DNA from: a virus | Lineage: Duplodnaviria > Caudoviricetes | Virus record (IMG/VR): IMGVR_UViG_3300003873_000009 | Coordinates: 1-56,411 of that record | Length of the DNA stretch: 56,411 nucleotides | Reading direction: 5' to 3' (one strand) | Shown: one piece after another, positions 9,618-51,325 of the stretch | Numbering within the stretch: the first letter of the stretch is position 1 | How the letters are laid out: every line of letters begins with the position of its first letter | Program-made: the position numbers and the translations under genes | The notes under the pieces: model-generated | What the model was told of the DNA's origin: nothing | Databases searched by the model: none | The model's input: only the letters and a program-made list of their open reading frames with translations

Positions 9618-11291
9618 CTAAGAAAGAATATATACCAGTTGTCCTGAATCATAAATCATTCTATAATTATTTTCTAACATATTCTGAATTTCTGTCTTAT
9701 TCTCATCAAATTTATCTAATTTATTCTTTAATTTATATTTTTGAAATTTTTCTCTAGGATATAATATATTTTCACCTTGTTTAAAGTAACTATAATTAGG
9801 ATATGTTTTATGAGAAAAATTAAATCCTAATTGTTTATATAAATTACCTGTAGACCAGGATCTATTAGCATAACTAATAATAGAACCTTTATACCTACTC
9901 CTAAAATATTTTAATAATTTTGATGCTCCACCTATAATAGAGGTATTTAAACGATTAGAAAATCTTATAATTTCATAATCATATTTCTTATTATATCTGG
10001 ATTTCATAAATGTCATTACAGATACTAATTCGCTTTTATAGAAAAGACCAAGTTTAATAGATGATTTAGCACTACCTTGAAGATGAGTTTCTTCTAGAAA
10101 TTTTCTACTCTCATCTAAAGTAATTTCTCTGATAATACACTTTCTAGCAAATATTCTCTCAGATTTTCCTAGTTTGTTTCTAATTACAGATTTCCAAATA
10201 TCTTTTTTATTTTTCCACGAGTCTTCGTATATATGAAGAAGCTGAATATTATATTTTTCTGCTATTTCAGTTTTAACTAAATGTCTTTCTCTATTTTTTT
10301 TATTATTCTCTTTATTAAATCTAGAGAAACTACTAATACCTATAGAATGATCCATTAACCCATTAAATTCTATCGCTAGATTATAATCTGGTAGATAAAT
10401 ATCAAACTCTTTATTATCAAATCTCTTTCTATATATTATATTATATATATTTAAAGATTTAATGAATTCAGAAATTTCTACCTCATATTTAGAGGATCCT
10501 TTAGCACATAAAGAACAGCCATTACCATTCATATGATTATCTATTCTTTGAGTAAATTCTCCGTGTTCAGGACATATTATTTTAATATTTTCGTCTATTC
10601 TGCTATGAGATATAAATTTTGAGTAATTATACTTATTTCTGTGAGTTTCTCTAAATCTTAAGATAATATCCTCATGTAATAATCTACTATTTTCTGCAGA
10701 TATATCAAAACTACATCTAGGACACCCATACTCTATAAGATCCGGAAGAGATTTATAAAATTTTCCATGTTTTTTACATAATATAGGAAATTTAGTAAGG
10801 TAATTTTCATAATCCTCAAATCTTACTAGAGATAGATCAAAATTAAGTTTTTCTAATTCTTCTATATATTTATTAAAAGTTTTTAATTTTTGATTTTTAT
10901 TAGACTTTATTTTAGAGCATTTAGGACAACCCGATCCAGATATATGACTAGATGGTAGTTGCCAAAAATCACCATGTTCTATACATTTTATCTTTATTTT
11001 TTTATTAAGACCTTTATATGTATCTCTATAATATTCATAATGATCATGAATTTCTTCTGATCTTTTTTTAAATTCATCAAAATCTATTTTTCTAATTTCA
11101 TTAGATCTTTCTGCAGAACATCTCTTACAATCAAAACCCTTTAAATGACTATTAACTCGCTGAATAAATTCTCCATGAATTGGACATATTATAGTGATTT
11201 TATCTGAAACTTTTTTAAAGGATACTTTAGAGTAGTCAAATTTATTATTATGAATATATGATGATTGTTGTATAAATTCTTTTATAGTCAT
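9618..11291 (-). mobile_element. Free-standing Hef-like homing endonuclease with N-terminal Zn-ribbon repeats
   Basis: Four CxxHG-F...CxxC repeats, EFDIYLPDYNLAIEFNG nuclease motif, and conserved ARKC/HLQG/GGASKLLKYF/SYANR C-terminal domain. Confidence 0.8.
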
Positions 11292-41365: not shown

Positions 41366-42943
41366 TTATTCCTTATAAGTTTTTAGATATTCTTCGTAGA
41401 ATTTCCAAGAACATCTAGGTGTATTCTTTTTAAAATATTCGTAATCTTCAAGATTTTCTATTACTTTAGTAGCTGATATATCACCATCTGTTCTAGGGAT
41501 TTCATATACATCCATTCCATAATTTTTTTCTAACATTTTTTTATATCCATCTACTCTATCAGAACCAGCTATAATAGTGGTAATCTCATTTTGAGATTTT
41601 CTCATAATAGTAAAGATATTCCCTGTAGAACTATTAAGAATCTCAATATCCGGAAAGCAATGCTTCATAATTTCATTCCTAAGCTCTTTAGTACCCTTAG
41701 TTTCTTTAGAAGATACTATATTTACTGTTACAGTATCATATTTAGCGGTAGCCTCTTTTATCATATCATAATGAGCTTTAGTAAGAATTCTAAATTTACC
41801 TAAAATTAATGCTCCAGATGCTACATCTTTTGATAATCTCATTCTAAAAGTTAGCGCAATATCGTCCTTAATCTGCTCTTCTGATTTTTTAATATGTTCA
41901 ATAGATATTTTAGTATTTTTCAATTTCTTATTAAAAGATATCACCGCATCTGCAAAATTAGATTTATCTATATCTTTTTGAAATACATCTATAAATTTAT
42001 TTACTTCTTTATAGTAATTATCTTCATACTCTTGATCACCTCTATACTGATCTTTAATTCTATTACGTGCTACTTGATCTGTTTGATATGGTTGTTGAAA
42101 CTTAATTAATCTATCATTAAATTTAACTACAACACCTTCTTCTTTACCACCGTATTTAGACTCCACATCTAGAAACATCTGGGAAATCTTTTCTATAATA
42201 TCTTCTCTAGAATCCCAGTTAATATCGGTACCTCTATAGAGTTTCTTTAGTTCATCGTCAATAATTCCTGATGTAAATGATTTTCTGGTACCTAAAATAC
42301 CTTTAAAAAGTACTGCTGGAACGTCTAATTTCATCTCTTTAGCATATTGATCTCTCTTTTCAGTAAAGAATCCTGAAGGCTTAGTAATTAATCTTCCATT
42401 TTTCTCTGTCCAAGTACTTTTAGAATATCCAATTAAAACCATACCATGTTTTTTAGTATAATTAGAGGATAGTGTAGGTTTTCTCATTAGAAATTCTACA
42501 AATAACTCAGTACCTGTTGGAATTGAATTCTTTCGAAGTTTTCTTAAATGATTCCAGACAAAAGCAAATTGAGAATTTCCTATACTTTTTGTTTTAATTT
42601 TATTTTTAGGAAGATATTCAAACTCATTAGGATATACTATGTCACCTTTATATGATACGATATAGTCCCTTTCTGCTACTCCTGAATTATCCTTCTTAAT
42701 AATAGTTACCTTAACACCATCTGTCTTATGTTCTACTACTACATTAGAGGTAAGAAATTCTTCTTTCTTAGAGTCATTAGTAAGAAATTTTTTAGCATTT
42801 TGAATACTAATATCTAGCTGACCCTTTCCTTCAAGAATATATCTCTTGAATTGTTTTCGAACCTTGCTAACTATTTCATTAGAATGGTTTTCAAAATTAT
42901 CTTTAGTAACATTAGAGGATTTATAGAAATCAGAGAAGCCCAT
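41366..42943 (-). CDS. ATP-dependent ligase-like domain fused to a cytidylyltransferase-like (HUP) domain
   Basis: EHKTDG (motif I), FVEF (III), EEGVVVK (IV), IKF (V); then GKFRILTKAH, GSDR and ISATKV. Confidence 0.65.
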   Translation of the reverse strand: MGFSDFYKSSNVTKDNFENHSNEIVSKVRKQFKRYILEGKGQLDISIQNAKKFLTNDSKKEEFLTSNVVVEHKTDGVKVTIIKKDNSGVAERDYIVSYKGDIVYPNEFEYLPKNKIKTKSIGNSQFAFVWNHLRKLRKNSIPTGTELFVEFLMRKPTLSSNYTKKHGMVLIGYSKSTWTEKNGRLITKPSGFFTEKRDQYAKEMKLDVPAVLFKGILGTRKSFTSGIIDDELKKLYRGTDINWDSREDIIEKISQMFLDVESKYGGKEEGVVVKFNDRLIKFQQPYQTDQVARNRIKDQYRGDQEYEDNYYKEVNKFIDVFQKDIDKSNFADAVISFNKKLKNTKISIEHIKKSEEQIKDDIALTFRMRLSKDVASGALILGKFRILTKAHYDMIKEATAKYDTVTVNIVSSKETKGTKELRNEIMKHCFPDIEILNSSTGNIFTIMRKSQNEITTIIAGSDRVDGYKKMLEKNYGMDVYEIPRTDGDISATKVIENLEDYEYFKKNTPRCSWKFYEEYLKTYKE

Positions 42944-43658: not shown

Positions 43659-43776
43659 TTAAGACTCCTTTTAGTTTTCAATATTATAATAGAATAGTCT
43701 TAAAGATTTATAAATACTAATAAGAATAAGGAGAATATTTATGATAGTTAAAAATATAGGAATAGAGGGAATATAA

Positions 43777-44424
43777 ATGGCAGTAAGATTTTCAATTAGA
43801 CAAGGACAGAATGTACCAACAGTATCAGACCTAGAACTTTTAGAATTAGGTGCAGATTTAACAGATGCTAATAATCCTAGAATATATACTAAAACATCGT
43901 CCGGTATTCATCCTATTGGTGTAGGAGATGCTTTAACACTTGGAGAAATTACTCCAGATAATTACGCACGTACTGATATTAATGAAGTATTTAATCAGAA
44001 CGTGACAGTTAATGGTACTCTAGATGCTACTGCAGAACGTGCAAAATATGCAGATATTGCTGAGTATTATGAAACTGATGAGGAGTATAAAGCTGGAGAT
44101 ATCCTAATGGTTGGTAGTGATACAGAAGCTACTATTGCAGATGGTACTAAAATGATTATGGGAGTTTGTTCTACAGCACCAGCTTATCTTATGAATACTA
44201 AAATTCAAAACGAAGAGGTCGAACACTATGCTCCTTTAGCACTTAAAGGAAGAATTCCTGTTAATATTACAGGTTCTGCTAAAAGAGGTGATTATATAGT
44301 ATTAGATAAAAAGAATCCAGGAAAGGGTAAAGCTGTTAAGACATATCCTAAACAAGATATTGAAAAGGTACTCATAGGAGTTTGTATAACTCCAGGAAAA
44401 GGTACATGTGAGGTGAAAGTATAA
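43777..44424 (+). CDS. Minimal fibre-like protein with peptidase G2-type intramolecular chaperone domain
   Basis: Fibre anchor N-terminus; ADIAEYY...GVCSTAPAYLMN...ALKGRIPV...GDYIV; late promoter at 43709. Confidence 0.6.
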   Translation: MAVRFSIRQGQNVPTVSDLELLELGADLTDANNPRIYTKTSSGIHPIGVGDALTLGEITPDNYARTDINEVFNQNVTVNGTLDATAERAKYADIAEYYETDEEYKAGDILMVGSDTEATIADGTKMIMGVCSTAPAYLMNTKIQNEEVEHYAPLALKGRIPVNITGSAKRGDYIVLDKKNPGKGKAVKTYPKQDIEKVLIGVCITPGKGTCEVKV

Positions 44425-44561: not shown

Positions 44562-45695
44562 ATGTCTCAATGTCAATCTTCTTGTAATTCTGATTCAATC
44601 CATATAGATATTAATACTACTTCAATTTGTAATATCGCCTGTACGTATTGTAGTGAAGGGAATGAATGTGGACTCTCTTCTCTATATCTTAAAAATACTC
44701 AAGTCAAAGTTGAAGATTTAATTAATAGGCTTGGAAAAGATCCTGCTAAAGGTAAAACTATTAACTTCTGGGGTGGAGAGCCGTTTGTTAATTTCAATTT
44801 TTGTAAACTAATTATAGAGGAATTTAAAAAAGATTCTTCATTCTCCTTCTTTTTCTATACAAATGGTATTCTTGTTCCTGATCATATAGAGGAACTTAAA
44901 AAATGGAATGAAGAATTTGGAAAAGAATTAGGTTATGACGGACAACCTAGACTTATAATTCAAATTTCTTATGATGGTAAATATCTTACTGATAATATTA
45001 GAATTGATAAGTCTGGAAAGGGTACCTCAGATAGAGTAGAAAAAGCTTTTAAACTTCTTAAAGAAAATGATATAGAAACTTCCTTAAAATCTGTAATTTC
45101 TTCAGATGGTTTTGATTATCTATATGATAGTTTTATAAGTTGTTATAAACTTCAAGGATATTATAATCCTACTCCTGACTTATGGTCCGATAGAACAGAA
45201 GATGAATTTCAAAAAGACTTAGAGGTATTAGAAGATCAACTTTCTAAGATTGCTGCTTATATAATAGCTAGAAACTTAAAGCCAGATGTCTTCTCATGGT
45301 TCGGAAGATCAAGAGCTATTTGTTCTGTAGGTTCTAATATGATTTCTGTAGATTTAGATGGAAAATTATATCCGTGTCATGCTCTCCAATATAAGGGGAG
45401 GGACGAACATGTTGTAGGAACTCTTGATAATTTTACAGAAGTAAAAGAAAAAACAATGAAGGCTTTTAAAATAATTAATTCCCATCTTCCTGAAGAGTGT
45501 CAAAAATGTAATGTTAACTTTTGTATGAAGTGTCAAGCTGCAAATTATGATAAGAGTAATAAAGAATCATATCATGAAAAATTTACAGACTATCAGGCTA
45601 ATTGGCAAGTATGTAGACTATTCAAAATGAATGATAAATATAATAAAACAGTTAATGCAGTACTTAATAATAATATAAATCTAGGAGATATTTAA
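44562..45695 (+). CDS. Radical SAM/SPASM protein 1
   Basis: CNIACTYC, FWGGEP, TNG, ISYDG; SPASM cysteines CSVG...PCH...CQKC....CMKC...C. Confidence 0.92.
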   Translation: MSQCQSSCNSDSIHIDINTTSICNIACTYCSEGNECGLSSLYLKNTQVKVEDLINRLGKDPAKGKTINFWGGEPFVNFNFCKLIIEEFKKDSSFSFFFYTNGILVPDHIEELKKWNEEFGKELGYDGQPRLIIQISYDGKYLTDNIRIDKSGKGTSDRVEKAFKLLKENDIETSLKSVISSDGFDYLYDSFISCYKLQGYYNPTPDLWSDRTEDEFQKDLEVLEDQLSKIAAYIIARNLKPDVFSWFGRSRAICSVGSNMISVDLDGKLYPCHALQYKGRDEHVVGTLDNFTEVKEKTMKAFKIINSHLPEECQKCNVNFCMKCQAANYDKSNKESYHEKFTDYQANWQVCRLFKMNDKYNKTVNAVLNNNINLGDI

Positions 45696-45696
45696 T

Positions 45697-46800
45697 ATGT
45701 CATTTGATACCTTTACACTAGAGTTAAAAATATCAGATCAGTGCTCTATGAGATGTCCGTACTGTTATGAAACATTTACAGATAAATATATGACTAAAGA
45801 GATCTTTGATGAATCTTTAGTAAAAATCATAGATATGATGGAACGATCAGGTACTAAAAAGCTTAATGTTAGTTTCTTCGGTGGTGAGCCTATGATGAAT
45901 TGGGATCTAATAGAATATGCTACTAAAGTGTTTAAAAAATTACCTATCGAAGTACAATTAGTAGTTATTTCTAATATGACTCTTATAGATAAGCATAAAA
46001 TTAAATTTCTTAAAGAAAATAATGTCGGTGTATCTTGGTCATTTGACGGTATTTCTTCAAACGAGACAAGACCTTTAGCCACTCAATTTATTAATCCTAA
46101 GGCCGATGGAACTAGATACTCTAACACATTAGAATTATATAACGATAAACTAAGCCTTATTAAGCAAATGACTAACGGATGTAAAGTAATGATATGGCCG
46201 GGTAATTCTCAACAAATGACAGAAAATTTAGAATTTTTCGTAGATAATGGTATTATAGCTCCAGATTATTCACTAGTACGTGACGATGTATGGACTAAAG
46301 ATGATATTATAAATTTTAAAGATGATTTGAGAAAACTAGGAGATAGATATATACAATATATAAAAGATGGAATATATGTAAATGTTGGATTCTTCTCTCT
46401 ATGTATTTTAGATAATGTATTTGGATTAACATTTCAAAAAAGATCTTTCGGTTGTTTTGCAGGAGTTCATGGAGCTGTAATGACAACTGATGGAAAATTC
46501 TATCCATGTGCAAGATTTTCAGATAAAAAGGTAATGGAAATTACTTCCGAATATCAGTTCAAGTACTGGCAAGATAAATTTAACCCTCAAAATTTTGATA
46601 AGTGTAAAGAGTGTGATTTATATAATGTTTGTAATGCAGGATGTACATATTCTCAAATCAGAAATGATAATAAACCTCTAGATAGTGTATGTGAGTTATT
46701 CCATATTATTCAGGAAGAGACTCAAAGAGTAGTACATGAATTGAGAGATGAACCAGTATTTCATGAAGTGATGAAGAACATCTTTAATAATATAGGATAA
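45697..46800 (+). CDS. Radical SAM/SPASM protein 2
   Basis: CSMRCPYC, FFGGEP, SFDG; SPASM CFAG...YPC...CKEC.....CNAGC...C. Confidence 0.93.
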   Translation: MSFDTFTLELKISDQCSMRCPYCYETFTDKYMTKEIFDESLVKIIDMMERSGTKKLNVSFFGGEPMMNWDLIEYATKVFKKLPIEVQLVVISNMTLIDKHKIKFLKENNVGVSWSFDGISSNETRPLATQFINPKADGTRYSNTLELYNDKLSLIKQMTNGCKVMIWPGNSQQMTENLEFFVDNGIIAPDYSLVRDDVWTKDDIINFKDDLRKLGDRYIQYIKDGIYVNVGFFSLCILDNVFGLTFQKRSFGCFAGVHGAVMTTDGKFYPCARFSDKKVMEITSEYQFKYWQDKFNPQNFDKCKECDLYNVCNAGCTYSQIRNDNKPLDSVCELFHIIQEETQRVVHELRDEPVFHEVMKNIFNNIG

Positions 46801-46804
46801 AAAA

Positions 46805-47026
46805 ATGAGTTGTACAAATTATGATAATATAAGTATATCAGATTTAGAAAATCAGTTAGAAGAAGCTAAAAAAGCATTAGTAGATAAAAAATATAAAAAC
46901 TATTCAGAAATGGAGCATCTTTTTGAGTATAATATAGATTTTAAAATTTTTTTAGAGGATATGTCCTATATTTTAGAGAAATCTAGGAATATAACTTCTG
47001 AGGAAGATTCATATAGGAGAGCCTAA
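46805..47026 (+). CDS. Small hypothetical protein in the radical SAM operon
   Basis: 73 aa, tightly packed, AGGA RBS. Confidence 0.65.
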   Translation: MSCTNYDNISISDLENQLEEAKKALVDKKYKNYSEMEHLFEYNIDFKIFLEDMSYILEKSRNITSEEDSYRRA

Positions 47027-47778
47027 TGAATTTTAAAAATATATTTAGGATTGAAAGAGATTCAGATGGAGAAACTCTCTTTATATTTTTTGATGACTTT
47101 AGGTTTCTAAAGAAAGCTAATTTTTATGATAAGCTAAAGAAAATTGATAGGTGTTATAGGAGATTTAAAAAAATATGTAAAGATCCTAAACTAAATATAG
47201 AATATCCTAAACCTAGCATTCATAGAGCTCTTGAAGCTGTACAATCATCTTATGATGAGGGTATAGGATATGCATATACCTTTGATGAATATGATTTAAA
47301 TACATACATATATCCTAACGTCAGAAGAGACCTTATAGTAAATGCTAAGTTAGTATATTATGATAAGCAGGATAGTAGGGATAAATTCTATTTAAGAGAG
47401 AAGATTATAGAAATATATAATGAAGATAATGATTATTTATCTAGAATTACACTTCTCTATAATTATATAATAAGACAGAAAGATAACTTATATGATATGT
47501 TATTTAATGAAGTAATACATTCAGATACTAGATTATCTTTTCAGTTAATATGGTTATCATACGATATATTAGATATTCAAGATTATAAGAGAATAATTAG
47601 TAGGGTATTTAAAAATTCTTCAGATTCGGAGAAAGAGCTGTTGAAGATGTTTTTAGAGTCTAGGATAGGAAAGTATAAGGATAATCCTAGATTTTTAAAA
47701 GCACAGGATACTGACGAGTCTAAAATAGAAATGGCTAAACAACTTCTTGAAGATATTTGGTATAGTAGAAACCTATGA
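47026..47778 (+). CDS. Hypothetical helical protein in the radical SAM operon
   Basis: Overlapping stop/start codons on both sides. Confidence 0.7.
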   Translation: MNFKNIFRIERDSDGETLFIFFDDFRFLKKANFYDKLKKIDRCYRRFKKICKDPKLNIEYPKPSIHRALEAVQSSYDEGIGYAYTFDEYDLNTYIYPNVRRDLIVNAKLVYYDKQDSRDKFYLREKIIEIYNEDNDYLSRITLLYNYIIRQKDNLYDMLFNEVIHSDTRLSFQLIWLSYDILDIQDYKRIISRVFKNSSDSEKELLKMFLESRIGKYKDNPRFLKAQDTDESKIEMAKQLLEDIWYSRNL

Positions 47779-48599
47779 ATAAAACTAATATAATCTATTT
47801 TACTACTTATTGTAATTTATCGTGTACATATTGTTATCAGCATATTCAAGGATATCCTCACTATATTCCTTCAAGAGAAGAATTAAAGAAATCTGCAGAA
47901 GATGTGATAAAAAGAGAAGGATTAGATAATCAATCTCTATTTATTTTATTTGGAGGTGAACCTACTACTAGATGGGAAGATGTTAAATTTTTTATGGATT
48001 ATACCTATTCTCTAAAAAAGAATGTTCAGTTTAATATAGTTTCAAATGGTATTAAATTTCTAGATAATGATTTTTTGAGAGATTTTCTAAACAATATTCA
48101 TTATAAAGAAGGTAGAATTCAGCTAGAGATAAGTTATGACGGACAAGTTGGTAATAGAGATAGAATCTATCCTAATGGTAAAAAATCTACAGAAGATGTA
48201 TTAGAGGTGTTATTTAAATTAAAAGAAATTGGTACTAAATATAGAATGAGATATACTGTACATAAAAATAATATCGAAATGTTAGAGTATGATTTAGATA
48301 AAATATGTAGATTTTTTAATCCAGATAGAATAGTATTAAGCGAGTATGAAGAAGATTTAACAGATAAAGAACTAAAAAAATTAGAGAATATTAAGAAATC
48401 TTTAATTAATAAATACTATAATAAAGAAATTATAGTTCCTATATGTATGAAGAATGATGAGATGTGTTCTATTTGTGGATTATGTGAAAAGAATATAGAA
48501 GATTTTTCACTATATTTAGGTAAAAATAATACAGTTAGAAAAAATACTATAGTTGGTAATTTTAATGACTTTAATGAAATGAGAGGAAATAATGAGTAA
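47775..48599 (+). CDS. Radical SAM protein 3 with short Cys-rich tail
   Basis: CNLSCTYC, LFGGEP, SNG, ISYDG; C-terminal C......CxxCxxC. Confidence 0.9.
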   Translation: MNKTNIIYFTTYCNLSCTYCYQHIQGYPHYIPSREELKKSAEDVIKREGLDNQSLFILFGGEPTTRWEDVKFFMDYTYSLKKNVQFNIVSNGIKFLDNDFLRDFLNNIHYKEGRIQLEISYDGQVGNRDRIYPNGKKSTEDVLEVLFKLKEIGTKYRMRYTVHKNNIEMLEYDLDKICRFFNPDRIVLSEYEEDLTDKELKKLENIKKSLINKYYNKEIIVPICMKNDEMCSICGLCEKNIEDFSLYLGKNNTVRKNTIVGNFNDFNEMRGNNE

Positions 48600-48948
48600 T
48601 TTAAGTTTAGAGGAAAGATCTAAAAAATTTTTAGATATTACATTAAAAATTAATAAAATAAGTGAAGAGTATAATGAGATAGATCCTCTAGTAGGATATC
48701 GATTTCAGGGAATGTTTAGAACTTTCATTACTCTGATGAAAGAGTCAGAAGGTAAAGATATGACTAATATAGAGATGCAAATAAAAGTTTTTGAAGAAAT
48801 GTTTGATTTTGATTTCTATAGTGAGGTTGAGAAGAAAGTTCGCGAAGTTCTAGGAAGTCAAGATACTCCTGAAGAAGATATAAATAAAGTAGATGATGAA
48901 ATCTTATCTAGTATTAAGAAAAATATTGCAGAATATCTAAAGGAATAA
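48592..48948 (+). CDS. Hypothetical acidic helical protein
   Basis: Overlaps the upstream stop; GAGGA RBS. Confidence 0.65.
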   Translation: MSNLSLEERSKKFLDITLKINKISEEYNEIDPLVGYRFQGMFRTFITLMKESEGKDMTNIEMQIKVFEEMFDFDFYSEVEKKVREVLGSQDTPEEDINKVDDEILSSIKKNIAEYLKE

Positions 48949-48949
48949 A

Positions 48950-49519
48950 ATGAGTTATGAGATAGAGATAAATCCTTTCGGTAGTACAGCATGGGATAAA
49001 GTTGTTTATAATATTCCTAGTACTCCTATTGGACAGATCATAGACGATCAAGATTGGAAATCTCTTCAGGATATCTTTAATCAGGAGGTCGCCAGAAGAA
49101 GAAATGAAAGACCTAATTTTGCTTTTTCTGGTGATGTTGGGGTAATTATAGACGATACACATTATAATCAATTTGCTGATGCTATGAATAACTTAAATGC
49201 ATATTATACTGGAGCGGATGGAGGAGCATGGAGTGGAATTTGTAGTGCTAATAACGTTGATGGAGGAATCTGGCATTGTAATAAAAATGCAGATAAGTAT
49301 GTTCCGGCAGTACCTCATGTATCTCCAGGTCAATTAATTACTGCAACTCAGATTAATAAGATTAGAGATGAGTTGATAGCTGCGGGGAATTCATGCTTTT
49401 GTAACTGTAATTACTGCGCCTGTAATTGTAATTTCTGCACATGTAATTGTAACTTCAGCTGTCCTTGTAACTGTAACTACAGCGATGAAAGACTTAAAGT
49501 ACAAATAACTTTTTTATAA
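48950..49519 (+). CDS. Cys-rich putative radical SAM substrate with (CxCNCN[YF])4-SDERLK tail
   Basis: 12 Cys in 29 residues (49394-49480); last gene of the radical SAM operon; AAGGA RBS. Confidence 0.7.
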   Translation: MSYEIEINPFGSTAWDKVVYNIPSTPIGQIIDDQDWKSLQDIFNQEVARRRNERPNFAFSGDVGVIIDDTHYNQFADAMNNLNAYYTGADGGAWSGICSANNVDGGIWHCNKNADKYVPAVPHVSPGQLITATQINKIRDELIAAGNSCFCNCNYCACNCNFCTCNCNFSCPCNCNYSDERLKVQITFL

Positions 49520-49549: not shown

Positions 49550-51325
49550 ATGGATGAAAAAAAATTAAAAAATACCCTTAAAAATATAGAAAATAGTAGA
49601 GGAGTTTTAAAAACTCCAGTACTTAAAAAACTTCTTAAAGATCCTGAAGTCACTAGTATTATTAAAGACTTCCCGGGTTCTTCTAATATAGAAAAAATAT
49701 ATAACTTTTATAGAAATATAACAGAGATTCCAAAATGTACCTGCGGAAATTCCAAAAAATTTAATAAGTTCTTTAATTATGTCTCTTGTTCTAAAAGTTG
49801 TGCTAGAAAAGATCCGGATACTCAAAAGAAAATAGAAGAAACTAATCTAAAAAAATATGGAACAAAGATATCTCAACAAGCAGCTACAATTAAGAGTAGA
49901 ACTAAAAGTACTAATCTAGAGAGATATGGTGTAGAAAATCCTAACCAACGTTCAGAAATCAGAGAGAGAATCAAGGAAACTAATCTAGAGAGATATGGAG
50001 TAGAAAATCCTCTTCAGAGTCCAGAAATCAGAGAGAGAATCAGGGAAACTAATCTAGAGAGATATGGGGTAGAATATCCTAATCAGAGTCCGGAAATTCA
50101 AGAAAAGATTAAAGAAACTAATCTAGAGAGATATGGAGTAGAAAATCCTAATCAACGTTCAGAAATTCAAGAAAAGATTAAAGAAACTAATCTAGAGAGA
50201 TATGGAGTAGATAGTATATGGAGAAAGAAACCTTCGAATATCTACTATGAAGAATTAGTAAAAAGAAATAGATCTCATATGAAAAACACAGAAAATCTTA
50301 ATAAAGAATTTATAGTTTCTAATTTTTTTAAAGATGATACTCCAGATATTATAGGAATTTCTGAGTATTTTGGACTAGATAAGAAAAATTTTGCAGGTCA
50401 TATGAGACGACTTGGAATTGAATACAAGAAAAAGTTTGGATTAGTAGAAAAAGAAATATCAAAATTTATAAAAAATCCTGTATTAAATGATAGAACTATA
50501 ATAAGTCCGAAAGAATTAGATATATATTGTGAAGAATTTAAGTTTGCGGTAGAATATGACGGACTTTTATTTCATTCTTTTGGTAAAAGTAAATATGGTA
50601 TGTTTAATAGTTATTCTAAAGAAAAAACAAATAGAAATAGACACCTAGAAAAAACAAATGCTTGTGAAAAACAAGGAATTCAACTATTTCATATTTTCGA
50701 GAATGAGTTTCAGGATAAGACTCTTAGAAGAATTTGGATATCCGTTTTAGAAAATAAGCAAGGACTTAATAAGAGGATAGGTGCTAGGAAATGTCAAATA
50801 AAAGAAGTACCTAGTAAAGATACAATTGACTTTCTTAATGAAAATCACCTTCAAGGATATAGTGTAGCTAAAGTAAATATAGGAATATTTTATGAAGAAG
50901 AATTAATATCCTTAATGACTTTCGGAAAATCAAGATATAGTAAAGATATTGAGTATGAATTAATAAGATTTTGTACGAAGATAGGATATTCAGTTCAGGG
51001 TGGTGCTTCTAAGCTACTGAAATATTTTGAAAGAACTTATAAACCTAAGAGTATTATTAGTTATGCTAATCGTAGATGGTCTGTTGGAGGACTATATGAA
51101 GCAATAGGATTTGATTTTTTAGGTGATACTAAACTCAACTATTTCTATTTTCATCAAAATAAACCAAATATTTTACTTAGTAGGCAGTCTTTTCAGAAAC
51201 ATAAATTAAAAGATAAATTAGAAATATTCGATGAAAATTTAACAGAATCTGAAAATATGTATAATAACGGATATAGAAAAATATACGATTGCGGAAATAA
51301 AAAATATATAAAATATTATAATTAA
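49550..51325 (+). mobile_element. Free-standing Hef-like homing endonuclease with TNLERYGV repeats
   Basis: ELDIY...AVEYDG nuclease motif; same C-terminal domain as 9618-11291. Confidence 0.8.
49841..50212. repeat. 69-bp (23-aa) coding tandem repeat, 5-6 units
   Basis: ACTAATCTAGAGAGATATGG at 49910, 49979, 50048, 50117 and 50186; degenerate copy at 49841. Confidence 0.92.

What the first reader, a model, noticed from the sequence alone, without database searches (positions are those of the whole stretch)
44562..49519. Phage-encoded triple radical SAM cluster with a Cys-repeat candidate substrate (RiPP-like system)
Seen: a tightly packed seven-gene operon with two full rSAM/SPASM enzymes, a third rSAM with a short Cys tail, three small helical proteins, and a final 189-aa ORF ending CFCNCNY-CACNCNF-CTCNCNF-S-CPCNCNY. 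Codons vary between repeats (TGC/TGT, AAC/AAT), pointing to protein-level selection rather than slippage. Known: SPASM rSAM enzymes form thioether (sactipeptide/ranthipeptide) or aromatic cyclophane crosslinks in Cys- or aromatic-rich precursors, and QhpD does so within a protein; Campylobacter phages carry radical SAM genes of unclear role. Inference: the enzymes crosslink the CxCNCN[YF] repeats, giving a modified virion component or released peptide, and the small ORFs may act as recognition elements or scaffolds.
Basis: partly seen in the sequence, partly recalled or inferred. Interest (0 to 1): 0.92.

Follow-up and report, generated by a model that had tools for sequence, protein, structure and literature searches.

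The report
Radical-SAM cassette for cysteine-heptad phage protein
A large phage carries three radical SAM enzymes that always travel with a small fibre-type protein ending in CxCNCNY repeats, which suggests that phages chemically cross-link part of their host-recognition gear, something not yet described in print.

Summary
Seven tightly packed + strand genes (44562-49519) encode two radical SAM/SPASM enzymes, a third radical SAM enzyme with a 4-Cys auxiliary motif, three unassigned proteins, and a 189-aa protein ending in four CxCNCN[YF] units plus a 12-residue SDERLK stub.

- 24 of 25 IMG/VR loci that encode a relative of the Cys protein have radical SAM genes next to it, and 20 of 25 have orthologues of all three directly upstream.
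- In reverse, 14 of 17 close rSAM1 orthologues have a heptad ORF in the same locus.
- In GenBank phages, the same 15 Campylobacter Firehammervirus records hold the heptad protein (CP220 gp140) and the rSAM1 and rSAM2 orthologues.

In longer relatives the repeats run straight into a Peptidase_S74 tail-fibre chaperone domain, and a fibre-like gene often lies upstream. I therefore read the target as a fibre-type structural protein, not a secreted peptide. The chemistry is inferred (thioether links most likely) and untested.

I found no paper that describes this system. Earlier notes of this scan describe sister cassettes with CXXX-type repeats on other DNA. This heptad, three-enzyme type appeared in none of them.

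The parts
43777..44424 (+). 215-aa fibre-like protein with a C-terminal tail-fibre / intramolecular-chaperone-like domain. It is context for the cassette and a possible partner.
   Evidence: phrog_19602 'tail fiber protein' at E 1.1e-12. Weak Peptidase_G2 IMC hit, 16.7 bits, below cut-off. Homologues of 174-1103 aa lie upstream of the rSAM genes in 12 of 25 related loci. TATAAATA at 43709-43716.
44562..45695 (+). rSAM1: radical SAM / SPASM enzyme, 377 aa
   Evidence: Pfam Radical_SAM 52.1 bits and SPASM 25.3 bits, both above cut-off. CX3CX2C at residues 23/27/30 plus seven SPASM Cys (254, 272, 313, 316, 321, 324, 351) are conserved in 19 of 19 orthologues. NCBIfam best hits are PapB at 79.8 bits and the CXXX-repeat maturase TIGR04115 at 76.8 bits, both far below cut-offs. 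PDB best match is 5wgg at E 1.5e-11.
45697..46800 (+). rSAM2: radical SAM / SPASM-type enzyme, 367 aa
   Evidence: Pfam Radical_SAM 55.1 bits. CX3CX2C at residues 16/20/23, conserved in 19 of 20 orthologues, plus seven Cys (253, 271, 303, 306, 312, 316, 332) in 20 of 20 orthologues. PapB 134.1 bits against cut-off 340. PDB best match 5wgg at E 9e-18. 36% identical to Campylobacter phage CP220 gp023.
46805..47026 (+). 73-aa protein (o73), unassigned, conserved in one gene-order clade
   Evidence: No family. Homologues lie between rSAM2 and rSAM3 in 12 loci. AF2 gives two helices, pLDDT 64, pTM 0.27.
47026..47778 (+). 250-aa protein (o250), unassigned, not conserved in the cassette
   Evidence: No family. 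Found only in L002 among the 25 related loci.
47775..48599 (+). rSAM3: radical SAM enzyme with one 4-Cys auxiliary motif, 274 aa
   Evidence: Pfam Radical_SAM 51.4 bits. CX3CX2C at residues 13/17/20 plus Cys 224/231/234/237 in 17 of 17 orthologues. phrog_19488 at E 5.3e-22. NCBIfam hits PapB at 73.8 bits and HxsC at 47.8 bits, below cut-offs. PDB best match is SkfB 6efn at E 3.4e-4.
48592..48948 (+). 118-aa acidic protein (o118), unassigned
   Evidence: No family. Clear homologues only in L002 and L004. A 122-137-aa ORF occupies the same position in eight more listed loci and matches o118 only weakly (E 0.003-0.07).
48879..48886 (+). TATAAATA (T4-type late-promoter word) 64 nt upstream of the Cys-protein start codon
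   Evidence: The word is not enriched in the window as a whole (22 found, 28.8 expected), so this is only a positional hint.
48950..49519 (+). 189-aa Cys-heptad protein, the proposed substrate
   Evidence: A profile of 31 relatives finds 377 cluster representatives at E <= 1e-3. Residues 127-178 match positions 269-319 of phrog_26958. AF2 places helices at 33-49, 69-80 and 132-146 and leaves the repeats unmodelled.
49394..49480 (+). Four CxCNCN[YF] units (residues 149-177, 12 Cys)
   Evidence: All 12 Cys are invariant in 31 relatives. Position statistics over 438 units are.
49481..49516 (+). 12-residue stub that begins with the Peptidase_S74 start motif (SDERLK...)
   Evidence: In long relatives, Pfam Peptidase_S74 profile position 1 aligns to this Ser. 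S178, D179 and K183 are invariant in 31 relatives. 86 of 169 family proteins end in such a stub and 31 of 169 carry a tail of 50 aa or more.

Best explanation
This is a conserved phage cassette in which three dedicated radical SAM enzymes post-translationally modify the C-terminal CxCNCN[YF] units of a small fibre-type structural protein.

Shown:
- The three enzyme orthogroups and the Cys-heptad protein are inherited together across diverse phage contigs.
- The enzymes keep intact SAM-cluster and auxiliary-cluster cysteines.
- The repeat Cys, the Asn/Asp/Gln/Glu at position 4, the Asn at position 6 and the aromatic residue at position 7 are under strong protein-level constraint.
- In relatives the repeats abut a Peptidase_S74 tail-fibre chaperone domain.

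Inferred:
- Each enzyme abstracts a hydrogen from a backbone or side-chain carbon within the repeats and joins it to a Cys sulfur, forming thioether bridges of sactionine or ranthionine type.
- The carboxamide/carboxylate residues at positions 4 and 6 are the likeliest acceptors.
- The 30-residue segment becomes a rigid, protease-resistant and redox-insensitive rod made in the reducing cytoplasm, where disulfides cannot form.
- The product is mounted on the virion near the fibre encoded upstream.
- The conserved non-repeat N-terminal domain serves as the docking part, because the enzymes lack an N-terminal RRE.
For: 1. Forward co-occurrence. Of 25 IMG/VR loci found with the Cys-protein alignment, 24 have at least one radical SAM ORF adjacent on the same strand. 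Twenty have orthologues of rSAM1, rSAM2 and rSAM3 directly upstream, and 21 if L018 (flanking arrangement) is counted. Two have rSAM2 plus rSAM1, one has a single rSAM3-like gene, and one has none. After collapsing near-duplicates, all three are directly upstream in 15 of 20 distinct loci.

2. Reverse co-occurrence. Of the 17 closest rSAM1 orthologues (L030-L046; 3 lie on contigs already seen), 14 have a heptad ORF on the same strand. One has a variant repeat, one has a Cys-rich ORF with an S74-like end, and one has only a truncated N-terminal part.

3. GenBank phages. Of 50,697 records, the same Firehammervirus phages carry all three: the heptad protein and the rSAM1 orthologue lie on the same 15 records, and the rSAM2 orthologue on 15 records of the same phages, 13 of them identical accessions (in vB_CcoM-IBB_35 it lies on another contig record). 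66 Campylobacter phage records matched an unrelated homing-endonuclease query.

4. Cofactor cysteines are conserved in 19/19, 19-20/20 and 17/17 orthologues.

5. Nearest characterised relatives are thioether-forming maturases. PapB is the top NCBIfam hit for all three. PDB best matches are 5wgg for rSAM1 and rSAM2, which I recall as CteB, and SkfB 6efn for rSAM3.

6. Repeat statistics over 438 units in 67 distinct proteins: position 4 is N/D/Q/E in 98%, position 6 is N in 94%, position 7 is aromatic in 96%. Copy number ranges from 4 to 26.

7. Fibre context. Pfam Peptidase_S74 starts at the Ser directly after the last unit in long relatives (P0032 at 62 bits). 31 of 169 family proteins keep a tail of 50 aa or more. 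P0103 joins a tail-fibre-like body to the heptads. A fibre-like gene lies upstream in 12 of 25 loci. In CP220 a gp63-like tail-fibre attachment catalyst lies between gp140 and the rSAM1 orthologue. PMC7029224 (passages read) places radical SAM cassettes in the host-recognition cluster of pelagimyophages.

8. The cassette has no protease or transporter.

9. The family is essentially viral. Only 2 loci were found among one genome each of 185,579 species, and both are MAG contigs.
Against: - There is no chemical evidence of any modification.
- AF2 leaves the repeats unmodelled (pLDDT about 40), and no solved structure resembles the protein by sequence or fold.
- Adjacency is not universal. The L026 record (44 kb, 23% complete) has a 17-unit protein and no radical SAM gene. 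L029 has an 832-aa heptad protein with none nearby. In CP220 the rSAM2 and rSAM3-like genes lie about 29 kb and about 80 kb from gp140.
- L008, L010 and L028 lack an adjacent rSAM3, so the third enzyme is not needed for heptads as such.
- Several of these phage records hold 5-6 radical SAM genes, so some proximity could be chance, although orthology and fixed gene order argue against that.
- Virion location is untested. phrog_26958 has no assigned function, the window's own protein has only a 12-residue remnant of S74, and a word-based search among longer proteins found no fused forms.
- No RRE-like partner was identified.
Confidence: 0.6

Rival explanations
1. Same enzyme-substrate pairing but different chemistry. 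The radical SAM enzymes could oxidise Cys to formylglycine (as anaerobic sulfatase maturases do), epimerise residues, or make Tyr/Phe/His cyclophane or ether links using the conserved aromatic position 7, rather than thioethers.
For: The anaerobic sulfatase maturase is among the matches (TIGR03942; 4k36/4k37). Cyclophane-forming maturases (YhhB, AmcB, FxsB, DynA, DarE) also appear at similar weak scores. Position 7 is aromatic in 96% of 438 units. No score reaches any family cut-off, so sequence cannot fix the reaction.
Against: The top NCBIfam hit for all three enzymes and the best PDB hits are thioether formers. Three invariant Cys per unit are hard to explain if Cys is not the reacting group.
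Confidence: 0.2
2. The Cys units are not covalently modified. They bind metal (metallothionein-like, or Fe-S). The protein could, for instance, stabilise a trimeric fibre through metal sites or supply clusters to the phage's radical SAM enzymes, which would then act on something else.
For: CxC motifs are typical metal ligands (my own knowledge). AF2 gives no fold for the apo repeats. Some heptad proteins lack adjacent radical SAM genes (L026, L029). These phages carry further radical SAM genes of unknown role (PMC2853527 passages).
Against: Three specific orthogroups stay adjacent in fixed order to the Cys gene in 20 of 25 loci, and the reverse test holds. This is the pattern of enzyme-substrate cassettes. 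All three enzymes resemble peptide maturases rather than small-molecule enzymes.
Confidence: 0.12
3. It is a classical RiPP. The N-terminal 148 residues act as an oversized leader, and the modified Cys-rich core is cut off and released as a bioactive peptide, such as an anti-competitor or a host-manipulating factor.
For: The layout of enzymes plus a Cys-rich C-terminal core resembles ranthipeptide, SCIFF and CXXX-repeat clusters. 38 of 169 family proteins end directly at the last unit.
Against: There is no leader peptidase or exporter in the cassette. The only cleavage motif present (S74 type) lies after the repeats, so it would remove the tail and not free the core. The N-terminal domain is itself conserved (E46, R49, R50 and N136 invariant) and is shared with other phage Cys-repeat proteins. 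The genomic context is tail-fibre genes.
Confidence: 0.08

Closest known systems
PapB/PapA (freyrasin) ranthipeptide system, NCBIfam NF047865
   Same: A radical SAM/SPASM maturase acts on a substrate with repeated Cys motifs. PapB is the top NCBIfam hit for all three window enzymes over nearly the full profile. From my own knowledge, PapB links Cys sulfur to the beta-carbon of Asp in CX3D motifs. Here the repeat has N/D/Q/E at position 4 and N at position 6.
   Different: Scores are 79.8, 134.1 and 73.8 bits against a cut-off of 340, so the enzymes are not members. There are three enzymes instead of one. The repeat is CxCNCNY with three Cys per 7-8 residues. The substrate is a protein of 150-300 aa with a tail-fibre chaperone motif. 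The system is phage-encoded.
CXXX-repeat peptide system (TIGR04115 maturase, TIGR04119 domain) and its phage tail-module versions noted earlier in this scan
   Same: rSAM1's second-best NCBIfam hit is TIGR04115 (76.8 bits), and it also matches TIGR04119 (42.2 bits). Distant rSAM1 relatives in phage contigs sit beside CXXX-type and other Cys-repeat ORFs. At least 19 of those ORFs share the window protein's non-repeat N-terminal domain.
   Different: Scores are below cut-offs (350 and 150). The repeat has a different register and composition. There are three enzymes rather than one or two. Pfam gave no hit for the 189-aa protein.
SCIFF / CteB thioether maturase (TIGR03974; PDB 5wgg, identity as CteB recalled)
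   Same: It is the best solved-structure match by sequence for rSAM1 and rSAM2, covering the radical SAM core and the SPASM region.
   Different: The alignments begin at chain residue 99-103, so the N-terminal part of that enzyme (recalled as its RRE) has no counterpart here. NCBIfam scores are 69-76 bits against a cut-off of 425.
QhpD / QhpC (quinohemoprotein amine dehydrogenase maturation, TIGR03906)
   Same: From my own knowledge, this is the precedent for a radical SAM/SPASM enzyme installing several Cys-to-Asp/Glu thioethers inside a protein subunit that stays part of a larger assembly. It matches all three enzymes weakly.
   Different: Scores are 45.5, 80.6 and 40.8 bits against a cut-off of 453. 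The substrate is unrelated, has no repeats and is not viral.
Peptidase_S74 intramolecular chaperone of endosialidase and tail fibres (PF13884)
   Same: In long relatives the domain begins exactly at the Ser following the last heptad. The Ser and the Lys five residues later, recalled as the catalytic dyad, are invariant even in stub forms.
   Different: The window protein keeps only the first 12 residues and gets no Pfam hit. No Cys-heptad segment is described for known S74-bearing fibres, to my knowledge.
Campylobacter phage CP220 gp140 (CPT_0180; phrog_26958) and the Firehammervirus radical SAM genes
   Same: gp140 has seven CxC[DN]CNY units. The rSAM1 orthologue lies 2.2 kb downstream. An rSAM2 orthologue (36% identity) and an rSAM3-like gene are present in the same genome.
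   Different: gp140 has 534 aa, with the units in the middle and a different Cys-containing C-terminal region. Its genes are dispersed rather than in one operon. The literature notes only a '21 bp repeat motif' in the gene and calls the radical SAM genes metabolic (PMC2853527 passages).

Membership tests
Radical SAM superfamily (PF04055) | CX3CX2C cluster motif and a Pfam score above the gathering cut-off | tested here: met
   Scores are 52.1, 55.1 and 51.4 bits against 29.5. The motif is conserved in 19/19, 19/20 and 17/17 orthologues.
SPASM subgroup (PF13186 / TIGR04085) | C-terminal seven-Cys motif for two auxiliary 4Fe-4S clusters | tested here: met
   rSAM1 scores 25.3 bits against 21.5 in Pfam and 35.3 against 27 in TIGR04085, and its seven Cys are conserved in 19/19. 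rSAM2 scores below cut-off in Pfam (14.6), but its seven Cys in CX2CX5CX3C spacing are conserved in 20/20. rSAM3 does not qualify, because it has only four C-terminal Cys.
PapB family ranthipeptide maturase (NF047865) | Whole-protein score at or above the curated cut-off (340 bits) | tested here: not met
   79.8, 134.1 and 73.8 bits.
PapB family ranthipeptide maturase (NF047865) | Forms Cys-S to beta/gamma-carbon thioethers in the substrate | not testable with these tools
   This needs mass spectrometry or NMR of the co-expressed product.
CXXX-repeat radical SAM target system (TIGR04115 / TIGR04119) | Maturase score at or above cut-off (350 / 150 bits) | tested here: not met
   rSAM1 scores 76.8 and 42.2 bits. 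rSAM2 scores 59.0 bits on TIGR04115. rSAM3 scores 34.8 bits.
CXXX-repeat radical SAM target system (TIGR04115 / TIGR04119) | Target with Cys at every fourth residue | tested here: not met
   Cys occupy positions 1, 3 and 5 of a unit of 7 or 8 residues. Pfam gave no hit for the 189-aa protein. I did not check whether the target model PF27846 is in the Pfam copy used.
SCIFF maturase (TIGR03974) | Score at or above cut-off (425 bits) | tested here: not met
   69.2, 75.8 and 45.4 bits.
QhpD (TIGR03906) | Score at or above cut-off (453 bits) | tested here: not met
   45.5, 80.6 and 40.8 bits.
Peptidase_S74 intramolecular chaperone (PF13884) | Complete C-terminal domain of about 58 profile positions, above the 22-bit cut-off | tested here: not met
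   The window protein has no Pfam hit at E <= 0.1, and only 12 residues follow the Ser. Relatives do meet the criterion: P0032 at 62 bits, L023 at 29.6, L005 at 25.7 and P0017 at 25.6, all starting at profile position 1.
Peptidase_S74 intramolecular chaperone (PF13884) | Autocleavage at the conserved Ser | not testable with these tools
   The Ser and the Lys five residues later are invariant in 31 sequences, but cleavage of a stub form is unknown.
Classical RiPP gene cluster | Short precursor with a leader, plus a leader peptidase and/or exporter and an RRE | tested here: not met
   The precursor is 189 aa with a conserved folded N-terminal domain. The cassette has no peptidase, transporter or PqqD-like hit. 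The enzymes start at the SAM motif, residues 13-30.
phrog_26958 (phage family of unknown function) | Match to the family profile | tested here: inconclusive
   The window protein matches only the repeat region, profile positions 269-319 of 534, at E 1.4e-10. CP220 gp140 matches over the full length. The shared part is the repeat, not the whole architecture.

The most novel reading that the evidence does not exclude
Phages of several lineages build an enzymatically cross-linked element into their fibre or host-recognition apparatus. Three dedicated radical SAM enzymes, one for each of the three Cys positions of the heptad, would turn a CxCNCNY array into a ladder of thioether staples. That gives a cytoplasm-compatible, irreversible substitute for disulfides, and the variable copy number (4-26 units) would tune the length of the rod. 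This would be the first RiPP-type chemistry found in a virion structural protein, and it would explain the long-unexplained radical SAM genes of Campylobacter Firehammerviruses and of pelagimyophage host-recognition clusters.
Probability: 0.4. Interest if true: 0.9.

Novelty: new variant of a known kind. Interest (0 to 1): 0.8.

Why it matters
Radical SAM/SPASM maturases are known as makers of small secreted peptides and, in one case (QhpD), of a cross-linked enzyme subunit. Finding a conserved three-enzyme set tied to a fibre-type phage protein would extend this chemistry to virus particles. It would also give a function to phage radical SAM genes that the papers I read leave unexplained or call metabolic (PMC2853527, PMC12398825, PMC7029224).

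The system is directly testable. Cultured Campylobacter phages of the CP220 group carry a version (gp140 plus orthologues of the enzymes), and the window's 189-aa protein is small enough for co-expression and mass spectrometry.

A densely stapled, genetically encoded repeat of tunable length would also interest peptide and protein engineers.

Tried and rejected
- Megablast of the operon and tblastn of the 189-aa protein against GenBank phages found nothing. BLAST's low-complexity filter probably masks the repeats. CP220 gp140 was reached only through the rSAM1 orthologue and the annotated 21-nt repeats.
- The AF2 monomer of the Cys protein gave moderate confidence for three helices and none for the repeats. 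Foldseek against the PDB and BFVD gave no match at E <= 0.001. A profile search of PDB sequences gave nothing at E <= 1.
- Complex prediction with three copies of the protein (alignment A2) returned 'no answer' (score 0.00, controls not run). It counts neither for nor against trimerisation.
- AF2 of the 73-aa protein gave two helices at pTM 0.27. I ran no further search on so weak a model, so an RRE-like role is neither supported nor excluded.
- The search for homologous proteins with lengths 'longer' found no fused forms. The tool itself says this is weak evidence.
- A strict regular expression for the conserved helix motif found it in only 3 of 62 Cys-rich ORFs, against 12 of 1211 others. 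I dropped that claim and replaced it with an HMM of the non-repeat domain, which gave 20 hits of which 19 were Cys-rich.
- The sigma-70 and terminator scans were uninformative in this AT-rich DNA (49 found against 42 expected). TATAAATA is not enriched overall.
- The ESM Atlas gave only viral hypothetical clusters at 0.91, plus a lead at 0.86 to a cluster in which 19% of members carry PF27846. I treat this as a lead only.
- I did not use the metagenome-contig scan, the sequencing-run tools or the third fold search.
- Literature searches found no paper that describes Cys-heptad proteins or radical SAM maturation of phage fibres. The library lacks most subscription journals.
- Supplements are closed. 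I therefore could not see the virion protein table of phage IBB_35 (PMC3322345), which might list the gp140 orthologue.

Full report
WHAT IS THERE

The window is a 56.4-kb fragment of an IMG/VR virus record, estimated about 35% complete. It is a T4-like myovirus with a tail sheath, a baseplate wedge, a large terminase and a gp55-type late sigma factor. It also carries Hef-like homing endonucleases.

Seven + strand ORFs fill positions 44562-49519, with junctions between a 4-nt gap and an 8-nt overlap. All three enzymes pass the Pfam Radical_SAM cut-off, and they are the only radical SAM genes in the record. I aligned each enzyme with its orthologues from related loci:
- rSAM1 keeps CX3CX2C plus seven C-terminal Cys in 19 of 19 sequences.
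- rSAM2 keeps CX3CX2C in 19 of 20 sequences and the seven C-terminal Cys in 20 of 20, in the canonical CX2CX5CX3C spacing.
- rSAM3 keeps CX3CX2C plus a Cx6CxxCxxC motif in 17 of 17.

The 189-aa ORF ends in four CxCNCN[YF] units (residues 149-177) and a 12-residue tail that begins SDERLK. The codons differ between units, and the 21-nt copies match at only 71%.

IS THE PAIRING REAL?

The 189-aa protein has relatives. A word-based search found 38. A profile of 31 sequences finds 377 cluster representatives at E <= 1e-3 and 81 at E <= 1e-30 among 1.84 billion. Only 2 loci turned up among one genome each of 185,579 prokaryotic species, and both are MAG contigs.

In the 31-sequence alignment the mean column identity is 29%, yet all 12 repeat Cys are invariant. 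So are E46, R49, R50, N136, S178, D179 and K183.

Forward test. I scanned IMG/VR with the alignment, which gave 25 loci, and searched every ORF of those loci with the window's proteins.
- 24 of 25 loci have a radical SAM ORF next to the Cys gene on the same strand.
- 20 of 25 have orthologues of all three enzymes directly upstream.
- L018 has them on both sides.
- L008 and L010 have rSAM2 and rSAM1 only.
- L003 has one rSAM3-like gene.
- L026 has none, and no radical SAM gene was found anywhere in its 44-kb record.
- Several loci are near-duplicates (L011-14, L019/20, L023/24). Collapsing them gives 15 of 20 distinct loci with all three directly upstream.

Two gene orders exist: rSAM1-rSAM2-o73-rSAM3-(o118-like)-Cys, as in the window, and rSAM2-rSAM3-rSAM1-Cys. 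Some loci carry two to four tandem Cys-protein paralogues (L006, L007, L021, L022).

Reverse test. I scanned with an alignment of 17 rSAM1 orthologues. Of the 17 closest hits (28-78% identity), three lie on contigs already seen.
- 14 have a heptad ORF on the same strand.
- L043 has a variant repeat.
- L045 has a Cys-rich ORF ending in an S74-like sequence.
- L044 has the whole cassette but only an 80-residue N-terminal remnant of the Cys protein.

CULTURED RELATIVES

The rSAM2 and rSAM1 proteins each match 15 Campylobacter phage records of the CP220 group, Firehammervirus, at 36% and 30% identity.

In CP220, six annotated 21-nt 'repetitive regions' lie inside gp140, 2.2 kb upstream of the rSAM1 orthologue. 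Translated, gp140 (534 aa) has seven CxC[DN]CNY units. It is the full-length type of phrog_26958, the only family the window protein had matched.

gp140 is present in the same 15 records and nowhere else among 50,697. A gp63-like 'tail fiber attachment catalyst' lies between gp140 and the enzyme. An rSAM3-like gene is at 83954-84733 of CP220.

[quoted passage not shown] A 2025 paper on phage CC_R7 still lists them without a role (PMC12398825, passage read).

WHAT KIND OF PROTEIN IS THE TARGET?

In longer relatives the Pfam Peptidase_S74 domain, the self-cleaving intramolecular chaperone of endosialidase and tail fibres, starts at profile position 1 exactly on the Ser that follows the last unit.

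I sorted 169 family proteins by what follows the last unit:
- 86 end in a stub of at most 20 residues with SDxxxK.
- 31 keep a tail of 50 residues or more.
- 38 stop within 10 residues of the last unit. Some of these may be cut by contig ends.
- 14 are otherwise.

Further points on context:
- P0103 joins a body matching tail-fibre PHROGs and Pfam Gly_rich_2 to C-terminal heptads.
- The gene upstream of the window's cassette (43777-44424) matches tail-fibre C-termini. Homologues of it precede the enzymes in 12 of 25 loci, some with a Peptidase_G2 chaperone-type hit just below cut-off.
- The cassette has no peptidase or transporter.

Together these points favour a fibre-type structural protein over a released peptide. 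No proteomic evidence was available to me.

THE REPEAT

I tallied 438 units in 67 distinct proteins.
- The period is 7 residues (165 spacings) or 8 residues (177 spacings).
- Position 2 is Thr in 59% but is variable.
- Position 4 is N 62%, D 28%, Q 6% and E 1%, which makes 98% carboxamide or carboxylate.
- Position 6 is N in 94%.
- Position 7 is Y 77%, H 12%, F 7% and W 1%.
- Copy number runs from 4 to 26.

From my own knowledge, Asp, Glu and Asn are the acceptor residues of the non-alpha thioether enzymes PapB, QhpD and NxxcB. That is why I favour Cys-to-Asn/Asp links. The variable position 2 would suit a backbone (alpha-carbon) link. Three Cys per unit and three enzymes is suggestive, but L008, L010 and L028 keep the same unit with only two adjacent enzymes.

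THE ENZYMES

PapB is the top NCBIfam hit for all three, followed by CXXX-repeat, SCIFF, nif11, QhpD and HxsB/HxsC maturases, all far below their cut-offs. The best PDB sequence matches are 5wgg for rSAM1 and rSAM2 and SkfB for rSAM3. The alignments to 5wgg start near chain residue 100, and the window enzymes begin at the SAM motif, so they lack an N-terminal recognition domain.

The 73-aa ORF is conserved in the 12 loci of the window's gene order. Its model is two helices at low confidence. The 118-aa ORF has only weakly similar positional counterparts. The 250-aa ORF occurs in one other locus.

A WIDER SUPERFAMILY

More distant rSAM1 relatives in phage contigs (22-27% identity) sit beside other Cys-repeat ORFs, with CXXX-like, CxxC-like and CTCT-like repeats. 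I built an HMM from only the non-repeat part of the window protein's family. It hits 20 of 2,672 ORFs in those loci at E <= 0.01, and 19 of the 20 are Cys-rich. The non-repeat domain is therefore the shared part and the repeat type varies.

Earlier notes of this scan describe CXXX-type cassettes in tail-fibre modules of other phages. I treat them as leads. One search is my own partial test of the link.

MECHANISM AND CONFIDENCE

I rate the steps as follows:
- Functional coupling of the enzymes and the Cys protein: about 0.85.
- The modification being thioether cross-linking: about 0.5.
- The product being a virion or fibre component: about 0.55-0.6.
- The combined statement: 0.6.

The role of the 12-residue S74 stub is unexplained. 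Its Ser and Lys are invariant, but the rest of the chaperone is absent.

NOVELTY

Eight full-text searches found no description of the heptad, or of radical SAM maturation of phage fibre proteins. The chemistry class is known. New here are the substrate type, the three-enzyme set, the heptad and the viral structural setting. I therefore class it as a new variant of a known kind, and I rate it of high interest because it is directly testable in cultured Campylobacter phages.

Noticed in passing
L110:2146-3750 (Campylobacter phage CP220 gp140; NC_027997.1 160932-162536): The six annotated 21-nt 'repetitive regions' inside this hypothetical gene encode CxC[DN]CNY heptads. The orthologue in CP21 and WX1 is annotated 'putative N-acetylneuraminate pyruvate lyase'. 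No PHROG or Pfam hit supports that annotation.
   Followed up: partly
L003:9596-10252, L006:9098-9673, L007:9599-10336, L008:9704-10315, L010:9650-10207, L011:9659-10753, L028:8596-9159: Family members in the second gene order begin with a Cys/His-rich N-terminal motif (MAC.GH..., then C..H.GY), sometimes repeated. This motif is absent from the window's protein. By a loose pattern it appears in 32 of 169 family proteins. It could be a second modification or metal site.
   Followed up: no
L044:11748-11990: The complete enzyme cassette is followed by only an 80-residue N-terminal remnant of the Cys protein, so the repeat region is missing. This may be a decayed copy or an assembly break.
   Followed up: no
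L021:9501-11558 and L022:9620-12184: Three and four tandem paralogues of the Cys protein follow one enzyme set. In L021 one paralogue has the full S74-type tail and two have the stub, which raises the possibility of mixed trimers.
   Followed up: no
window 49550-51325: The gene directly after the cassette is a 591-aa Hef-like homing endonuclease (phrog_3339, E 2.9e-141) with DUF7487 repeats and a Mom-family hit at 28.9 bits. A second Hef-like gene lies at 9618-11291.
   Followed up: no
window 41366-42943 (- strand): By eye, the 525-aa protein resembles CP220 gp026, a 506-aa nucleotidyltransferase-domain protein that lies about 1 kb after the rSAM2 orthologue in CP220. This hints at remnant synteny with Eucampyvirinae. 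I did not compute it.
   Followed up: no
P0129 (356 aa, metagenome protein): RNase PH and IF-2 Pfam domains are followed by C-terminal heptads. This is probably a chimeric gene call or assembly.
   Followed up: no
L029:3490-5988 (MAG contig of a Clostridia bacterium): An 832-aa protein has six perfect C[LT]C[ND]CNY units in the middle and a C-terminal region like that of CP220 gp140 (phrog_26958, E 6.3e-64). No CX3CX2C-bearing ORF lies within the 14.5-kb locus.
   Followed up: partly
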